Source: a virus. Taken from it: a stretch of 64,000 bases of DNA. This document shows positions 48,001 to 57,000 of the stretch, piece by piece (position 1 is the first letter of the stretch; each line of letters opens with the position of its first letter). The DNA lies in the UHGV virus genome UHGV-1440165. One strand, written 5' to 3'. Position numbers: made by a program.

Positions 48001-51000
48001 GCAGATGGTATTGCTGAAGCCGGGCAACCCATTCGGCCAGAATTACTTCGCATATCCCGAGTTCTTCCCTGAGGAGCTTGGTCTGGGTAAATGGGTGGAT
48101 TACCAGGCGGCCTTTGAGAAGTCCTTCATCGACCCGATTCAGTCCATTCTTGACGTGGTCGGCTGGTCACACAAGCGCCGTGTGAACCTTCTTGCCATGA
48201 TGCAAAAGAAGAAAGGTTGATTCAATAAACCAAAGGGGGATATAATTCCCCCTGTTAACCCTTTGACAAACAGGTGATTGAAATGAAACTCAATAAGATT
48301 CTTCTGGTGTGTGCTCTGGCTTTCTCTACCACCGCATGCTCTACCCTGGCGGACGTCGTGTCAACCCCTGACCTCGACGCCCCGACGTTCACCAACGAAC
48401 AAGCCGTGGCCAAGATGGAAGACACCATCAAGGCGCATGCGGCATTGGATAACACTACTCCAGGTCCACTCCAAACCGTCTGCAACTATGACGATTCCAT
48501 CCAGGAAGACGAAACCTATCACTGCACCACCTACGTGAAACAGGCTTCGGTCGTCCTGTATGCGGACTGCACCGAAGAGCAGTGCAACGCCACGGGCTAC
48601 GACAAAGTGGAGAAAGATCAATGAACAACCTGGTCTGCATCTATGATATGAAATCAAAGGTCGGCGGCCTGTATCGCGTCCTCGTGGATGTCGACCTGAC
48701 GCTGGTTGACAGCCTCTCCCCTTGGGTGCAGTGGTTCAACGAAGAGAACTTGATAGTCAGCGACAGCAAATACTTCAAACACAAATTTGCTTCTGCTGTA
48801 GTCCCCGAAAAATATTTGCCGGAGAATGTGGAATTCCAGCCTATCACCAAAGAGTGCTACATGGCTCATGCTGGTGACCTGGCTATCCTGATGCGTGAAC
48901 GCGCTCATCCGGCTTGGCTGTACCGTGAAGTCCAATTGGGGTTGCACAAACAACGTGTTCCAAGCGGCAACGATCCTATGGACTGGTGGCGTCGCCCCGA
49001 CCTGTATGCCAAGATGAACCCGCTCCCCGGCGCTTACGAGTTCCTGGTGAATCTGAAGAAGATTCTGCTCGAAGACTTTGACAATGTTGAATTCATCGCA
49101 GTGTCTAAGTGTGAGCCGGAACATGAGCGCAGCAAGCGCCAGTTTGTCTATGACAAGTTCCCTGGCATCTTCAACGGATTTGTCAGCACCGACGAAAAGC
49201 ATCTGCTGGCAGGCGATGTCCTGATTGATGACAATCCGAAGTATGTCGAGCCGTGCGGCCTGAACAACATCTTCGTCATCTTTGTTCCTCAGGGCAATTA
49301 TGAAAAACTGGATCTTTCGAACTCGGAAGATATGCTTTATATTAAACCAGTAGAAGGCCAGAACCACTTCGACTTCCTGAACCGCAATATTGTCGAAGTG
49401 GTGAATCGCCTGATTGGTCATTATCAATACGTCCGATAGGAGGACATCGTGCAAGAACAATCCAAGTTTGGGGAAACCCCAGACAAGCGTTCCGGTGATA
49501 GCGATATGGATGGCGTGATCATCCATGTCAACAACTTCATTCGTCAGCAGGAGACTCCGACTCCTATCGCTGCTGCCAAGGCTCTCCATGAAGTACTGGT
49601 AGAGATCGGCCAGCGCTCTGAAGCGGATGAAATCTTCTATAACTTCGAAGACCAGTATAAAGTGAAGTTTGAAGAGAATGGCCGCCCACAGGTTGCTGTG
49701 TTCTGGGCACCTTGGATGGGTGGTGTGAGCTGGCGTATTGAGGATGCTTTGTAATGCTGTCGCTCTACCTGATCACAAACCTCGCCAACCATAAATTCTA
49801 TATCGGTGTCACTTCCGAACCGGATAGGCGGTTGGCTGAACACAAGTGTGGTCAGGGGAGCATTGCATTACAACGAGCGTTCAAGAAATACGGTGAAGAC
49901 CAGTTCAGGTTTGAAGTTCTGTTCCGAGGGGAAGATTCGGTTATCCTTGAGATAGAGTCTGAACTGGTCTGCCAGGAGATCCTCGATAGCGGGTGGTGTT
50001 ATAACATGGTCACCGGGGGTGGGAAGCCTCCATTGGCCACGCCAGAGTCATCCGCAAAGAGCGCCGTAACCCGCAAACGTTTGATCGCCGAAGGTAAGAT
50101 TAAACCTCCACCAAGACTCACCCCTGAAGCACAAGCCAGAAAGGGTAAGATCATAAGCAAATTGATGTCAGAAGGGAAGATCCCCAAACCACCAAGACCT
50201 TCCTCTGAATCTCAAACGCGTGGAGGGGAAACTAGGAAGAGGCTGCATGCTCTTGGTCTGATAGACATTGGTCCTGGTCGCGATGAAAAGATTTACAAAT
50301 GGCAGCACAAAGATGGTCGCATCGTTGAGTTAAGGAGGTGCGACATGGAACTTCAATATGGCCTCCCTTCCGGTAATATAACGAATCTCTTGAAAGGTAG
50401 GGCTAAAACATGTCTCGGTTGGAGAATATTAAATGGCTAAAATAATTGTAGTGAAAGGCACCTCGGCCACGGGCAAGGGTACGAGAGTGGTCCAGTTCAT
50501 CGAATGGCTGCGCACTAAGCTGGAGCCTACCGAACTCACCTACACCATTGGTGACAAGACGCGCCCGTTTGGCCTGAAGTTCGAAGAGCTGAAGTTAATC
50601 TTCGTTGGCCAGTATACCGTGTCTAACAAATCCGGTCTGGCTTCCTGGACTTCCATGGACGCCATTCATGCCGCCACAGGCTCGGGCGATATCGCCCGTG
50701 ATCTGGTTAAAGGCTGGCTGACCCAGGGTTACACTCTGGTGTGTGAGGGTGAACCCCTCATGCTGTCGGATAAATGGCGTCCTGAATGGATGTTCAAGAA
50801 CTATCCGATTGAATCACTGGCGCTGCTGTACTTTGCGTACCCCGACCGCTATCAGTATGATGCTCGCATCCGTGGTCGCTCTGGTAAGGAAGCAGGGGAC
50901 TCCGGCTGGTCACGCAACGAATCCTACTCCAAGGAGTTTGAAAAGTCGAAGGCCGAAATGCTGGCGCTGGGCTTCACCGTGGCGGTTGATGATTACAGTG

Positions 51001-54000: not shown

Positions 54001-57000
54001 ACGATAGACCGCATCGACCGCCGTGGTCTTGGTCAGCCCCCGCGCTGGGCGCAGGTTCAGATTGGTGAGCCAGCGGCCAGGGAACACTCCTACATGAACT
54101 ATGTTCTGGGCAACAAGGACTCTCTGTTCTCCCGCTCTGACCAGCAGTTTGCCGAGCGCTTCAAAGACAAGATTCCCAAGTACCCTGAGGTCTATGACTA
54201 CTATCGTGTCACTCGTGTTCTGAACGTGTCCGGCCTGGCTTTGCCCACCACATACTGGAACGATTACCTGAATGATGTTCTGAAGAAGCTGGGCGCGGCC
54301 AAGCAGGTGAACATCGTCTGGGTTGTGACCTCTGGTCAGCCAGTTGAATATTTCCAGGGCTTGGTCTATGCATGGGATGGCGGTAAAAAGAATGACGTTA
54401 TCGTCGTCACCGACATCAGCAAAGACCTGAAGATCAACTGGGGTAAGAGCACGTCGTTCGCCGATGGTATGCACAACCGTGAACTTCACTCCCGCAACGG
54501 TATGGACCTGACCGGGCATGATATGGGTATTGGCGTCATGACAGACGTTGTTGCCAACATTACCAAAGGCTACAACCGGGTGGAGATGAAGGAAATGGAG
54601 TACCTGAAGTGGCGGGAACTCAAGACCTGGGAAGTTGTGATTGTTGTTCTGCTGGGCTGTCTACCGTTCACCGCAATTTTCATATTGCAGCGAATGGAGT
54701 ACAATGGTGGCCGTCGTCGTTATCCGTTTAATTTTTAATCAAAAGAGGAAGTAAGAATGTCTCAATCTAAGGGTATTGCAACAGGTTGGATCGTTGGTTT
54801 GGCTTTACTGGCTGCTGCTGTTGTCGGCATCGGCACTGTCATCAGCTACTTCAATGACTTCAACCGCACCGAGCAGCAGGTCAAGAAGTTCAACAAAGAC
54901 TCCGAGAACTACCTGAGTAACTATACGCTCAAAGTTCAGGAGACGGCGCAGATTCCTGACATGTACAAAGACGGCCTGAAGGAAGTGATCAAAGGCACGT
55001 TCGAAGGGCGTTATGGCGCTGACGGTTCCAAGGCTGTGATGCAGTGGATCCAGGAGCAGAACATTCAGTTCGATTCCAGCCTGTACAAAGAGATCCAGGT
55101 GGTGATCAGTTCCGGGCGTGATGAATTCCGCATCAGCCAGACCAAGAAGCTGGATATCTGCGCGTTGTACGAAACCAAGCTGTCCCAGTTCCCTGGTTCG
55201 TTGATTGCTGGCGTGTTTGGATACCCGCGCATCGATCTTGACAAGACCTGTCAGGTGGTGAGCGATACCCGTACCCAGGCTGCGTTCGACGCCGGGGTTC
55301 AGAAACCGATCAACTTCAAAGGCTGATATCATGGGCTTGAAACTGTTAGAATCCCTGACGCTGGACCAACAGCAGGCTCTGTTGGACGAAGTGGTGATCT
55401 CTGCGGTCAAGCAGGGCATCATCAAAGACGACACGTTGATCAACCGTCCGGAGATGATTCATCATCTGGTGGTGTGCCTGGGTGAAGCCAATCACCCTCG
55501 CAAGAAGATCGTTTTGTTCACCGATGGTGTGATTCATCCGAGCGGGAACTGCGCGTTCATGGATGTGGTTGAACATCCGAACACGAAGGGTAAAGAGATC
55601 AAGACCTCTGTTCCAGTGACCCCATACACTGAGGGTGTTGATCAGCTGTCTTGGTTTGAGACTATCAACACCATCTATGTGATGGCGGTCGGTGGTCGAC
55701 CTGTCCAAGACCTGCGCGGCGCTATTAAACCAGAGCCGAAAACTGAAGTCTAATCGTTCTTCAATAAAAGGGGATAGGGTATTATTGCTCTATCCCCTTT
55801 TTCATGGGCAGGAACATGACAGACAAGCCAAGAAAGATTGCGATTATTGGAGCCGGACTGGGCTCTCGGCTGATCAAAATTCTGTTGGAAGAGAAGCTGC
55901 CGGGAGTGGAAGTTGTTCACATCACACCTGATGATATCCCGAAGCGTCGGAGTGAACCGGGTGAGCGCATGATCATCTGTGACGAACTACAACAGATGCC
56001 GGACACCAAGGCTCTGATTGCCAAGTTGAAACAACGAGACACGGAGATGTCTGCTGAATGTGATATGCGGGAGTTCTATGCCGACCGCCGCTATCAAGAA
56101 CCCACACGCCTGCGTGGAGCCGCTGCTCAAAAACGTCAGGCCAATAAGATGAAGAATAAACGCCGGAGCAAACGCTGATGACTACCAAACCAACTTATGA
56201 AGAACTGGCACAGACCGTTCTGACCTTTGACAGCACCCTGAAGACCCTATACAAGGTTTTGGGTAAGAACCCGACTTCGGAATCAGGCGACGCAGTTAAT
56301 CTTCTGCTGTTGCTGAATCCTCTATGGGGTATCGATGCCACCGTCGCTGCTTTGAAAGATCCTAATGCGGTGGAATCTCCTGAAATGCCAGACCAGGATG
56401 AACTGGCCTCCGCATTGATGTATCTGGATAATGCTTGGTCAGAACTTTTCACCCAGACATGCTCCAACCCTGTATCCAACGCCTGGGGTAAATCTTTGGA
56501 TTTCACAGAGGTGAACAACTTCCGTGAGAAAGCATCTGGCACCGTGTATCGCACCCGCCTGGCACTGAAAGGTGAAACCAAAGAAGCCAAGCCGGAAGCC
56601 CCTGCGACCACGGGCATTCAGAAGTACCTGGAGAACTTTGATCAGTACTCCTTTACTGATCTGCTCTTGCGCGACCTGGTCAACACGGAACGCCGTCGTC
56701 AGGAAAAGAATTGCCCTACAGTTCAGTCGGATCATGAGATCGAGGAAATCGTTCGCGAAGAGCTGAACAGCGCCTACTCGCCTATCGATCTGGCTGTAAT
56801 GATCGTCCAAGCATTGTCATACGCCGCGAAAGGAGAAACCAAATGAAGAAGTCATCCGCTGCTGTTGCTGCCATGTTGGCGCTGTCGGAAATGGAAATCG
56901 TCGCCACGCATCGCGGTGATGACATGTGGGGGCGTCGTTACACTCAGGGCGGCGCACCCGGCGAACCAGGCCATGGTCGCCCGTCTGTAACCCGCAAGAA

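What the first reader, a model, noticed from the sequence alone, without database searches (positions are those of the whole stretch)
48217..55801. Promoter-embedded stem-loop cassettes: -10 hexamer sits in the loop of a terminator hairpin
Three intergenic cassettes (48217-48253, 53337-53386, 55757-55801) share one architecture: a -35-like hexamer fused to a CAATAA(A) box, a G-rich arm, TATAAT or TATTAT as or within the loop, the complementary C-rich arm, then a T-tract. Each follows a stop codon and precedes the next gene, so one element could terminate and re-initiate. The same TTCAATAA box with -10 but no hairpin occurs at 34632-34661 and 39200-39228. Repeated cassettes of this kind have been described as mobile regulatory modules in T4-type phages.
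Basis: partly seen in the sequence, partly recalled or inferred. Interest (0 to 1): 0.55.

Follow-up and report, generated by a model that had tools for sequence, protein, structure and literature searches.

The report
Promoter-in-hairpin cassettes of ViI-like phages
Between its genes this ViI-like (Ackermannviridae) phage repeatedly uses a compact signal in which a phage-specific promoter (TTCAATAA box, 12 bases, then a -10 element) sits inside an RNA hairpin that probably stops upstream transcription, a variant of the promoter/terminator cassettes known from T4-like phages and a candidate for the early/middle promoters nobody could find in this family.

Summary
The window is an Ackermannviridae (Aglimvirinae) phage. 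TTCAATAA is the most over-represented 8-mer in its intergenic DNA (9 sense copies against 0.19 expected). It lies exactly 12 bp upstream of a TAnnnT -10 hexamer in a discrete class of sites. In about half of those sites a GC-rich stem straddles the -10 (p=1e-4 in the window, 5e-8 in phage Ag3).

Cassettes 2 and 3 are strong hairpins with a U-tract (-26 and -24 kcal/mol), much more stable in the sense RNA than the antisense. Cassette 1 has a conserved hairpin but no U-tract. Box, 12-bp spacing, -10 and a hairpin around the -10 are kept across five genera. The stems differ between genera, and the promoter parts persist where the hairpin is lost.

Best reading: overlapping terminator/promoter insulators that work like the PeSL/PmSL cassettes of T4-like phages. 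The promoter differs in having no usable -35 and a box placed like T4's MotA box, in phages reported to lack MotA/AsiA. No transcript mapping exists, so function is inferred. Earlier annotations listed individual copies as either "promoter" or "terminator"; I found no description of the composite or the box. Interest is moderate.

The parts
48221..48253 (+). Cassette 1. Box TTCAATAA 48221-28, 12-nt spacer, -10 TATAAT 48241-46 as the loop of stem AGGGGGA/TCCCCCT. No U-tract. Lies between the DNA polymerase stop (48218-20) and the next gene (ATG 48283).
   Evidence: -14.1 kcal/mol, z -1.8. The Ag3 ortholog was listed as early promoter Porf237. Conserved in Kuttervirus, Taipeivirus, Erwinia and Serratia phages, with different stems in the last two.
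53337..53386 (+). Cassette 2. Box 53340-47, 12-nt spacer, -10 TATTAT 53360-65 at the tip of a 16-bp stem (53346-53381), U-tract TTTCTTTT. Follows a 54-aa membrane-protein ORF (53156-53319) and precedes the gene at 53402.
   Evidence: -26.2 kcal/mol, z -5.5; antisense only -14.6. The Ag3 ortholog was listed as terminator Torf248, -22.9 kcal/mol. 96-98% identical in Kuttervirus while flanks are 54-84%.
55757..55802 (+). Cassette 3. Box 55760-67, 12-nt spacer, -10 TATTAT 55780-85 at the tip of a 16-bp stem (55766-55801), U-tract TTTTT. Paralog of cassette 2.
   Evidence: -24.3 kcal/mol, z -7.0; antisense -17.4; 97.5% of cells paired, all changes RNA-compatible, 2 compensatory pairs; repeat family D5. 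The Mooltan GenBank record annotates the ortholog as a terminator.
2960..3000 (-). Fourth cassette, minus strand. Box 3000-2993, 12-nt spacer, TATTAT 2980-2975 in the loop of stem ACGGGGCGA/TTGCCCCGT. No U-tract. Shares the loop GGTATTATTGC with cassette 3.
   Evidence: -15.6 kcal/mol, z -3.4. The Magnus ortholog keeps box, N12 and TATTAT but has lost the 5' arm.
3318..3376 (-). Cassette with a one-mismatch box. TTCAATAC, N12, TATGCT, inside an 11-bp stem CCTGTTGTATG/CATACAACAGG, upstream of the gene 3317-3006.
   Evidence: -15.0 kcal/mol, z -3.0.
41026..41069 (+). Cassette with a one-mismatch box. TTCAACAA 41026-33, N12, TAAAAT 41046-51 in the loop of stem ATAGGGGTT/AACCCCTAT, upstream of the gene at 41091.
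   Evidence: 9-bp stem; the fold is weak against shuffles, z -1.3.
34636..34661 (+). Box-N12-TATAAT without a hairpin. The only promoter candidate for the first rightward gene (34698) in the 322-bp strand-switch region.
   Evidence: No canonical sigma-70 promoter upstream of the gene. Identical in Ag3.
39204..39228 (+). Box-N11-TATAGT without an embedded hairpin, 44 nt upstream of tRNA-Asn (39272).
36171..36196 (+). GTCAATAA-N12-TATAGT, no hairpin, in the tRNA/small-ORF region. The Ag3 ortholog has a perfect TTCAATAA.
57551..57599 (+). Tetraloop terminator (AAAGCCCTC agcc GAGGGCTTT) whose U-tract runs into a box variant TTCAATTG 57573-80, then N13 and TATTAT 57594-99, upstream of rIIA (57650).
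   Evidence: Same layout in Magnus, Mooltan, Erwinia (perfect TTCAATAA-N12-TATAAA) and Serratia.
11590..11653 (-). Hairpin ATGCCCTC tccg GAGGGCAT followed at once by TTCAATGA-N12-TACAAT. A late-type motif CTTAAATAC lies just upstream.
1960..2015 (-). 'Class A' promoter: GTTTAC-TTCTTCAATAA-N6-TATACT. Stem ACGGGGT/ACCCCGT encloses the -35 and spacer. A second TTCAATAA lies 22 nt upstream.
   Evidence: -14.0 kcal/mol, z -4.7; repeat family D6.
44266..44330 (.). Divergent 'class A' promoter pair. GTTTAC-TTCTTCAATAA-N6-TATACT on the minus strand (box 44287-44280) and an inverted TTCAATAA at 44301-08 on the plus strand.
   Evidence: Orthologs in Ag3, Magnus and Serratia.

Best explanation
These are compact transcription insulators that overlay two signals on 45-50 bp.

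(1) At the DNA level they carry a phage-specific promoter. It consists of an 8-bp box TTCAATAA at about -33 to -26, a fixed 12-bp spacer and a good -10 hexamer (TATAAT/TATTAT). It has no usable -35.

(2) At the RNA level, the spacer and the bases just after the -10 are complementary. A transcript arriving from upstream therefore folds into a GC-rich hairpin with the -10 sequence at its tip.
- Where a U-tract follows (c2, c3, and Ag3 38648 and 76104), this is an intrinsic terminator.
- Where none follows (c1, 2993-), it is more likely an attenuator, pause or 3'-end-protecting hairpin.

RNA polymerase initiating at the embedded promoter starts about 7 nt after the -10, inside or just past the 3' arm. 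Its own transcript lacks the 5' arm and cannot terminate there. The cassette thus uncouples the downstream genes from upstream transcription and puts them under the box-dependent promoter. For c2, the upstream transcription includes that from a late-type promoter at 53120 driving the 54-aa ORF.

Shown: the sequence architecture, its statistics, its conservation and the RNA-strand bias. Inferred: promoter activity, termination, start sites and what recognises the box.
For: Promoter part:
- TTCAATAA is the top intergenic 8-mer and is oriented with the downstream genes.
- Spacing to TAnnnT is quantised at 12.
- Box-N12-(-10) occurs without any hairpin at 34636, 36171 and 39204.
- It survives loss of the hairpin arm in Magnus.
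- In Magnus c2 the stem shifts register by 1 nt while the box-to-(-10) distance stays 12.
- At the 34376-34697 strand switch, where a promoter must exist, it is the only candidate.

Hairpin part:
- Folding energies are -26.2 and -24.3 kcal/mol, z -5.5 and -7.0.
- Sense RNA is far more stable than antisense because of G.U pairs. Serratia's c2-like copy has four G.U pairs.
- Substitutions among orthologs are G-C<->G.U or compensatory.
- c2 and c3 differ by compensatory changes in the stem.
- Erwinia and Serratia phages have entirely different stems around the -10 at the same sites.
- Stems straddle the -10 far more often than at other -10-like hexamers.
- Ordinary terminators in the same window have 4-5-nt loops without TAnnnT, whereas the cassettes carry the hexamer at the stem tip.

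Selection: the cassettes are 96-100% identical between subfamilies whose flanking genes are 54-85% identical. The downstream protein of c3 is only about 57% identical.

Self-transcripts are predicted to be unstructured.

Precedent: the same design has demonstrated terminator and promoter activity in RB49/phi1 PeSLs (PMC2839356).

Independent annotators called one copy a promoter and others terminators.
Against: - No 5'- or 3'-end mapping, reporter or in vitro data exist for this family.
- The -35 region is poor and there is usually no TGn. Unmodified sigma-70 holoenzyme may therefore use these promoters weakly or not at all.
- c1 and 2993(-) lack U-tracts in all genera examined, so 'terminator' does not hold for every copy.
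- c1's fold is not better than shuffles (z -1.8).
- Covariation within orthologs is thin because the cassettes are so conserved: 10 of 16 pairs in c3 never vary, and 27/500 shuffles reach the observed score.
- The gene map used for the intergenic statistics is my own ORF-based approximation.
- The 2012 'Viunalikevirus' paper, which from memory mentions conserved regulatory sequences, could not be read.
Confidence: 0.62

Rival explanations
1. The hairpins are ordinary intrinsic terminators or RNA-stability hairpins and nothing more. The TAnnnT in the loop is a by-product of A/T-rich loops, and TTCAATAA is the upstream A-rich tract that pairs with the U-tract.
For: RNAfold extends the c2 and c3 stems into the AA of the box and the U-tract. 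Two annotations treat copies simply as terminators. No promoter activity has been shown.
Against: - The box occurs at the same 12-bp distance from a -10 hexamer where there is no hairpin (34636, 36171, 39204; Ag3 134996, 136368).
- It is retained with the -10 when the hairpin arm is lost.
- The spacing distribution has a sharp peak at 12.
- Plain terminators in the same genome use 4-5-nt loops without TAnnnT.
- c1-type copies have no U-tract at all.
- The 34636 site sits where a promoter is logically required.
Confidence: 0.12
2. The selected function is at the DNA level. The inverted repeats would act as cruciforms or protein-binding palindromes (operators), or as recombination sites that move gene modules, the PeSL 'mini-circle' idea. 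Transcription signals would be secondary.
For: - c2 and c3 are a direct repeat pair 2.4 kb apart.
- The spot just downstream of c2 carries six different combinations of three small genes among relatives, always abutting the cassette.
- One relative (L006) has the c2 hairpin inverted in place.
- The cassettes are more conserved than their flanks, which could reflect homogenisation.
- PeSLs were shown to recombine (PMC2839356).
Against: - Stems differ completely between copies and genera, so there is no common palindrome for a protein.
- G.U pairs make the structure strand-specific. On DNA or the antisense strand they are mismatches.
- The gene-content junctions distal to c2 use a different recurrent motif (GGTGAATCTAAATG), not a second cassette.
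- No relative lacks the c2-c3 interval.
Confidence: 0.08
3. The hairpins act on the downstream gene's RNA as processing or decay determinants rather than terminators, for example RNase entry sites or 3'-end protection after cleavage. This applies especially to the U-tract-less copies c1 and 2993(-).
For: c1-type hairpins are conserved in five genera without ever acquiring a U-tract. The Magnus change is G-C to G.U, which is RNA-compatible.
Against: c2, c3 and two further Ag3 copies have canonical U-tracts and very stable stems. There is no evidence for cleavage. This reading does not explain the box/-10 geometry.
Confidence: 0.1

Closest known systems
PeSLs (promoter-early stem-loops) of T4-like phages RB49/phi1, PST/T4 and nt-1/KVP40 (Arbiol et al. 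2010, PMC2839356; Comeau et al. 2014, PMC4122927)
   Same: - Repeated intergenic cassettes of about 50-100 bp that fuse a promoter with a G_n-loop-C_n stem-loop.
- The stem-loop most often lies between the -35 and -10 or overlaps the -10.
- Each lies between the stop of one gene and the Shine-Dalgarno/start of the next.
- They sit next to variable small ORFs.
- Several registers of overlap coexist here too: -10 in the loop, -35 and spacer in the loop (1960-2015), and hairpin abutting the box (57551, 11590).
   Different: - A different phage family (Ackermannviridae, not T4-like Straboviridae).
- The main class has no sigma-70 -35 match. It has an invariant TTCAATAA box 12 bp from the -10.
- Copies are far fewer and sit in conserved positions across genera, rather than mainly in hyperplastic regions.
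- Some copies lack a U-tract.
- Recombination, mini-circles and activity are untested.
T4 middle (MotA/AsiA-dependent) promoters and the PmSLs of Vibrio phage nt-1 (Hinton 2010, PMC2988021; Comeau 2014, PMC4122927)
   Same: - A good -10, no -35, and a 9-bp phage-specific box centred near -30. The MotA box is positioned 12 bp +/- 1 from the -10; here the distance is 12 (11-13).
- Found upstream of nucleotide-metabolism, replication and DNA-modification genes and tRNAs, the gene classes served by T4 middle promoters.
- PmSLs likewise combine such a promoter with a stem-loop and a TATTAT -10.
   Different: - The box sequence is unrelated (TTCAATAA against TGCTTtA).
- ViI-like phages are reported to have no MotA, AsiA, Alt or ModA homologs (PMC3184105), so the recognising factor, if any, is unknown.
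- The same box also occurs 6 bp from the -10 inside promoters that do have a T4-early-like -35 (GTTTAC), which MotA boxes do not.
Canonical intrinsic (Rho-independent) terminators
   Same: c2 and c3 have a GC-rich 10-16-bp stem, a short loop, a 5-8-nt U-rich tail and an upstream A-tract.
   Different: The loop and stem tip encode a -10 hexamer, and the upstream A-rich tract is part of a conserved box. c1 and 2993(-) lack the U-tract.

Membership tests
PeSL (promoter-early stem-loop) | Contains a strong sigma-70-like early promoter (near-consensus -35 and -10, 17-bp spacer, A/T-rich upstream region) | tested here: not met
   The -10 is good (TATAAT/TATTAT). The hexamer 17 bp upstream is TTCTTC, TGATTC or AAGTTC (1-2 of 6 matches) and is not conserved between genera. 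The consensus scan finds only c1, using an 18-bp spacer. The separate 'class A' sites (GTTTAC-N17-TATACT) do meet it.
PeSL (promoter-early stem-loop) | Contains a stable stem-loop overlapping or adjacent to the promoter, able to terminate upstream transcription | tested here: met
   Structure and U-tract are present for c2 and c3, and the stems straddle the -10. Actual termination was not testable. c1 and 2993(-) lack a U-tract.
PeSL (promoter-early stem-loop) | Repeated family of intergenic elements lying between a stop codon and the next gene's Shine-Dalgarno/start | tested here: met
   At least 6 hairpin copies in the window and at least 6 in Ag3. c2 and c3 are a 60-nt repeat. All are intergenic.
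PeSL (promoter-early stem-loop) | Preferentially associated with indels or replacements of small ORFs (modular shuffling) | tested here: inconclusive
   Six gene-content variants lie directly downstream of c2, but the distal junctions use another motif. c1 and c3 show no such variation in 17 loci.
PeSL (promoter-early stem-loop) | Demonstrated promoter and terminator activity; formation of mini-circles by recombination between copies | not testable with these tools
   Needs reporter assays and inverse PCR as in PMC2839356.
T4-type middle promoter / PmSL | Sigma-70 -10 element plus an activator box centred near -30, 12 +/- 1 bp from the -10, replacing the -35 | tested here: met
   The geometry is met: an 8-bp box 12 bp (range 11-13) from TAnnnT, against the MotA box 12 +/- 1 bp.
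T4-type middle promoter / PmSL | Box matches the MotA consensus (a/t)(a/t)(a/t)TGCTTtA | tested here: not met
   The box is TTCAATAA, with no TGCTT core.
T4-type middle promoter / PmSL | Phage encodes MotA and AsiA | not tested
   [quoted passage not shown] Pfam scans of five proteins (two Ag3 proteins annotated as transcriptional regulators, three unannotated window ORFs) gave nothing relevant. No whole-proteome scan was done.
Intrinsic terminator | GC-rich stem, short loop, U-rich tract directly after the stem, on the sense RNA | tested here: met
   Met for c2 and c3. Not met for c1 and 2993(-), whose tails are TGTTAACC and TCTACTAT.

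The most novel reading that the evidence does not exclude
TTCAATAA is the binding site of an undiscovered phage-encoded transcription factor, a functional analogue of T4 MotA/AsiA in a family that has no homolog of either. At the 'class B' sites (box 12 bp from the -10, no -35) it would replace the -35 contact and switch on middle-type genes: nucleotide metabolism, thymidine hypermodification, replication and tRNAs. The same box sits in the spacer (6 bp from the -10) of the T4-early-like GTTTAC promoters, and in tandem or inverted pairs nearby. 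One factor could therefore shut early promoters off while turning middle ones on. The embedded hairpins would ensure that the downstream genes depend on that switch. A parallel design, CTAAATAC late motifs forming the 5' arm of hairpins, would do the same for late genes.
Probability: 0.2. Interest if true: 0.75.

Novelty: new variant of a known kind. Interest (0 to 1): 0.5.

Why it matters
Ackermannviridae (ViI-like) phages are widely developed for biocontrol and detection of Salmonella, E. coli O157, Shigella, Klebsiella and Dickeya. Their early and middle transcription signals have been an acknowledged blank. The CBA120 paper states that early promoters could not be identified by informatics and that no MotA/AsiA-type regulators are present (PMC3184105).

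The box-N12-(-10) motif gives a concrete, testable promoter class conserved across at least five genera. The hairpin overlay explains why the same sites were annotated as promoters by some authors and as terminators by others.

The finding extends the PeSL/PmSL design principle, promoter and terminator sharing the same bases, beyond T4-like phages. It hints that the same trick is used for late promoters.

Practically, these 45-bp insulator cassettes mark the safe boundaries for engineering reporter or payload genes into these phages.

Tried and rejected
- Exact-pattern scan of IMG/VR with TTCTTCAATAA-N12-TATTAT. The motif alone is not specific at that scale, and nothing was learned beyond the known Ackermannviridae contigs.
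- Rfam over the whole window. Only the five tRNAs; no described RNA family covers the cassettes.
- Pfam on two Ag3 proteins annotated as transcriptional regulators (Ag3 orf57, orf104) and three unannotated window ORFs. Only DUF5856; no lead to a box-binding factor.
- The 2012 'Viunalikevirus' paper (PMC4174289), which may discuss conserved regulatory sequences, is not held. The 2024 family review contains no mention of promoters or terminators.
- A second hairpin after c1 (CCTGTT...AACAGG) that might hide the Shine-Dalgarno of the next gene in read-through RNA. The MFE fold does not support it. Dropped.
- Reading TTCAAT as a -35 hexamer. The spacer would be 14 bp, and no alternative -10 exists at 17 bp. 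Rejected by inspection.
- Matches of the box to IHF, sigma-32 or H-NS consensus sequences, from memory. Partial at best, not pursued.
- Global 8-mer statistics on whole genomes are swamped by coding-bias words such as GAAGAA. Only the intergenic analysis is informative.
- A greedy ORF map without strand blocks was unreliable and was replaced.

Full report
**Identity of the window**

The 47-57 kb stretch matches 283 phage records. All of the closest are Ackermannviridae: Shigella phage Ag3 and ChubbyThor at about 91%, Yersinia phage CAU_YEP3 at 94.6%, and the Dickeya Limestone-type phages. The finding lies in the rightward block that starts with the DNA polymerase gene (45221-48220) and runs to rIIA (57650-60406), as shown by the Ag3 annotation of the orthologous stretch. 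I fetched several relatives for comparison:
- the whole Ag3 genome;
- 64 kb of Klebsiella phage Magnus, a Taipeivirus;
- parts of Salmonella phage Mooltan, a Kuttervirus;
- Erwinia phage phiEa2809 and Serratia phage 3M;
- 13 IMG/VR Ackermannviridae loci.

Yes. The three cassettes read exactly as described.
- c1: TTCAATAA (48221-28), ACCAAAGGGGGA, TATAAT, TCCCCCT.
- c2: TTCAATAA (53340-47), GGGGGAATGGGT, TATTAT, TAGCCCGTTCCCC, TTTCTTTT.
- c3: TTCAATAA (55760-67), AAGGGGATAGGG, TATTAT, TGCTCTATCCCC, TTTTT.

The hairpin-less copies at 34636 and 39204 are also present. There are two corrections. First, c1 has no T-tract.

**Chance**

- TTCAATAA occurs 14 times against 1.8 expected, and no shuffle reaches 14.
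- In an oriented set of intergenic segments (6.5 kb) it is the single most over-represented 8-mer, 9 against 0.19 expected. Only 3 copies fall in 57.5 kb of coding sequence.
- The distance from the box to the next TAnnnT is quantised. It is 12 bp in 5 of 14 window copies and 9 of 26 Ag3 copies, with a minor class at 6 bp.
- Allowing one mismatch in the box, the composite box-N11-13-TAnnnT occurs 12 times against 0.9 in Markov-1 random sequence.
It also adds a hairpin-less site at 36171 and two sites (11623-, and 57573 upstream of rIIA) where a tetraloop terminator runs straight into the box.

**Two promoter layouts share the box**

- Class B: box, 12 bp, -10, with no -35. This is the class of the finding.
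- Class A: GTTTAC-TTCTTCAATAA-N6-TATACT. Here a T4-early-like -35 sits 17 bp from the -10 and the box lies in the spacer (1982-, 44280-). These form their own repeat family (D6). At 1960-2015 a stem (ACGGGGT/ACCCCGT, -14 kcal/mol, z -4.7) encloses the -35 and spacer.

**The hairpins**

- c2 and c3 fold to -26.2 and -24.3 kcal/mol (z -5.5 and -7.0). 2993(-) folds to -15.6 (z -3.4). c1 folds to -14.1, which is not significant (z -1.8).
- The reverse strands of c2 and c3 fold much less well, -14.6 and -17.4, because several pairs are G.U. That points to function in the sense RNA rather than in DNA.
- A GC-rich stem of >=6 bp straddles the -10 in 5 of 12 class B sites against 4.5% of all -10-like hexamers in the window (p=1e-4). 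In Ag3 it is 9 of 27 against 2.9% (p=5e-8).
- A catalogue of intergenic stems shows two kinds. Plain terminators have 4-5-nt loops (ttcg, gaaa, tccg and so on) and no TAnnnT. The cassettes carry the hexamer at the stem tip.

**Conservation and covariation**

All three cassettes are present in every relative examined.
- Between the window and Kuttervirus phages they are 96-98% identical while the flanking 300 bp are 54-85% identical. The protein downstream of c3 is only about 57% identical.
- Within c3 orthologs, 97.5% of cells are paired. Every one-sided change is G-C<->G.U or U.G<->U-A, and two pairs show compensatory changes. Ten of 16 pairs never vary, so the test has little power.
- The stronger evidence comes from greater distances.
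  - In Magnus, c3 shows G-C to A-U. The c2 stem shifts register by one base while the box-to-(-10) distance stays at 12.
  - In Erwinia phiEa2809 and Serratia 3M the c1 site and c2-like sites have completely different stems. Examples are GTGGGGC/GCCCCAC, GGGGTTACAG/CTGTAATCCC and GGGGTGCGGGC/GTTTGTACCCC, the last with four G.U pairs. They still flank a -10 hexamer 12 bp from TTCAATAA at three of the four (the Serratia c1 copy has TTCAATAT about 14 bp away).
  - Conversely, the Magnus ortholog of the 2993(-) cassette keeps box, 12 bp and TATTAT but has lost the 5' arm.

The promoter-like elements and the hairpin are therefore each under their own constraint. The promoter-like elements are the more basic of the two.

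**How it most likely works**

A transcript from upstream contains both arms and folds. At c2 and c3 the U-tract makes this an intrinsic terminator. Polymerase starting at the embedded -10 begins about 7 nt downstream, inside or after the 3' arm. The predicted self-transcripts (from 48254, 53373 and 55792) are essentially unstructured, at -3.8 to -5.3 kcal/mol with z about 0. They would therefore read on into the next gene.

- At c2 the upstream unit is a 54-aa membrane-protein ORF. It has its own late-type promoter TATAAATA at 53120. The cassette thus separates a late single-gene unit from the following genes.
- At the strand-switch region 34376-34697 a rightward promoter must exist. The consensus scan finds no sigma-70 promoter upstream of the first gene, and the class B motif at 34636 is the only candidate.

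These steps are inference. I found no transcript-end mapping for any Ackermannviridae phage.

**Comparison with what is known**

The design matches the PeSLs of T4-like phages. Those are composite promoter/stem-loop cassettes with the stem-loop most often between the -35 and -10 or overlapping the -10. Their terminator and promoter activity was shown with lacZ fusions, and they are associated with shuffling of small ORFs (PMC2839356; PMC4122927).

The class B cassettes fail one defining PeSL feature, the near-consensus sigma-70 -35. Their geometry is instead that of T4 middle promoters: a good -10 and a phage-specific box centred near -30. The MotA box is positioned 12 bp +/- 1 from the -10 (PMC2988021). 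They also resemble the PmSLs of Vibrio phage nt-1.

They sit upstream of the kinds of genes T4 expresses from middle promoters:
- the deoxyribonucleotidase, nucleotide-kinase and thymidine-modification block after the polymerase gene;
- the thymidylate synthase-UvsX-gp41 operon in Ag3;
- rIIA;
- tRNAs.

However, the box is unrelated to TGCTT. The CBA120 paper states that ViI-like phages have no MotA, AsiA, Alt or ModA, and that early promoters could not be identified by informatics (PMC3184105).

**Prior description**

- The Ag3 paper lists the c1 ortholog as early promoter Porf237 and the c2 ortholog as terminator Torf248. In one case it lists an overlapping promoter and terminator (Porf067/Torf069). 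It does not note the overlap or the box.
- The LIMEstone paper only counts promoters and terminators.
- The Mooltan GenBank record marks c3 as a terminator.
- The 2024 family review does not mention promoters or terminators.
- No paper combines PeSL with this family.
- The 2012 'Viunalikevirus' paper could not be read. From memory its abstract mentions conserved regulatory sequences. Part of this may therefore already be in print.

**Mobility**

c2 and c3 are paralogs, a 60-nt repeat 2.4 kb apart with compensatory stem differences. Directly after c2, relatives carry six different combinations of three small genes (B; B-C; D-C; D-B; D-B-C; C). The first gene always abuts the cassette, and sequence identity breaks right after the shared Shine-Dalgarno. 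One relative has the c2 hairpin inverted in situ.

This is compatible with PeSL-like shuffling but does not prove it. The other junctions use a different recurrent motif, and no genome lacks the c2-c3 interval.

**Verdict**

This is a real, conserved, family-wide regulatory architecture. It works like the PeSL/PmSL cassettes but is built on a different, undescribed box-dependent promoter. Function is inferred, not shown.

The most novel reading still open is that TTCAATAA is the site of an unknown factor that replaces the -35 contact. Because the box also lies in the spacer of the early-type promoters, that factor could switch early transcription off and middle transcription on.

Noticed in passing
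window 569(-), 17877(-), 27540(-), 30563(-), 43065(+), 53120-53155(+); also L140:1920-1990 and L141:3785-3850: A second intergenic motif, CTAAATAC(CCC), is the next most enriched 8-mer (7 against 0.16 expected). It is presumably the family's T4-like late promoter. In 5-6 sites its ATACCCC forms the 5' arm of a hairpin closed by GGGGTAT: -17 to -21 kcal/mol, z down to -7.3, loops of 4-17 nt. TATAAATAtcctc...gaggatat at 53120 does the same. This is the 'promoter inside a hairpin' logic applied to late promoters, and it is conserved in Erwinia and Serratia phages.
   Followed up: partly
L006 (IMGVR_UViG_2974516482_000001), cassette-2 ortholog: The cassette-2 hairpin is inverted in place. GGGGAACGGGTTAATAATAACCCATTCCCC is the reverse complement of the usual hairpin, while the box and U-tract keep their orientation. 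The G.U pairs become C.A mismatches in the sense RNA.
   Followed up: no
window 53402-53626 and orthologous stretches of L001-L019: A hypervariable spot lies directly after cassette 2. Three small genes (63, 70-79 and 128 aa) occur in six presence/absence combinations before a conserved ~370-aa membrane protein. Gene junctions repeatedly use GGTGAATCTAAATG, with overlapping stop and start.
   Followed up: partly
window 41757-41830 (+): A very stable 12-bp stem (-25.3 kcal/mol, z -5.4). Its 3' arm contains the AGGAG Shine-Dalgarno of the gene at 41826 and its 16-nt loop contains TATGAT. It may be a translational or promoter-in-loop element of a different register.
   Followed up: no
window 53387-53404 (+) and about 44235-44218 (-): The same ribosome-binding stretch AAGGAAATACATCATG precedes two unrelated small genes. 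It is also present in Ag3 and Magnus at the orthologous sites.
   Followed up: no
window 48265-48270 (+): A perfect TTGACA lies 12 nt after cassette 1 and is conserved in all genera as CCCTTTGACAA. No -10 follows on the plus strand. On the minus strand TTGTCA-N16-AATTAT would point back into the polymerase gene.
   Followed up: no
window 40001-40089 (+): ARAGORN reports a tRNA-like gene with an undetermined 2-base anticodon next to tRNA-Ser, and Rfam scores it as a tRNA (54 bits). The CBA120 paper mentions a similar degenerate tRNA.
   Followed up: no
window 37695-37702 (-) and L015 (Ag3) 16893 (-): TTCAATAA copies lie in intergenic DNA but are oriented against the local genes. One faces the tRNA-Arg gene. 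The other sits back-to-back with a plus-strand terminator. They may be antisense promoters or relics.
   Followed up: no
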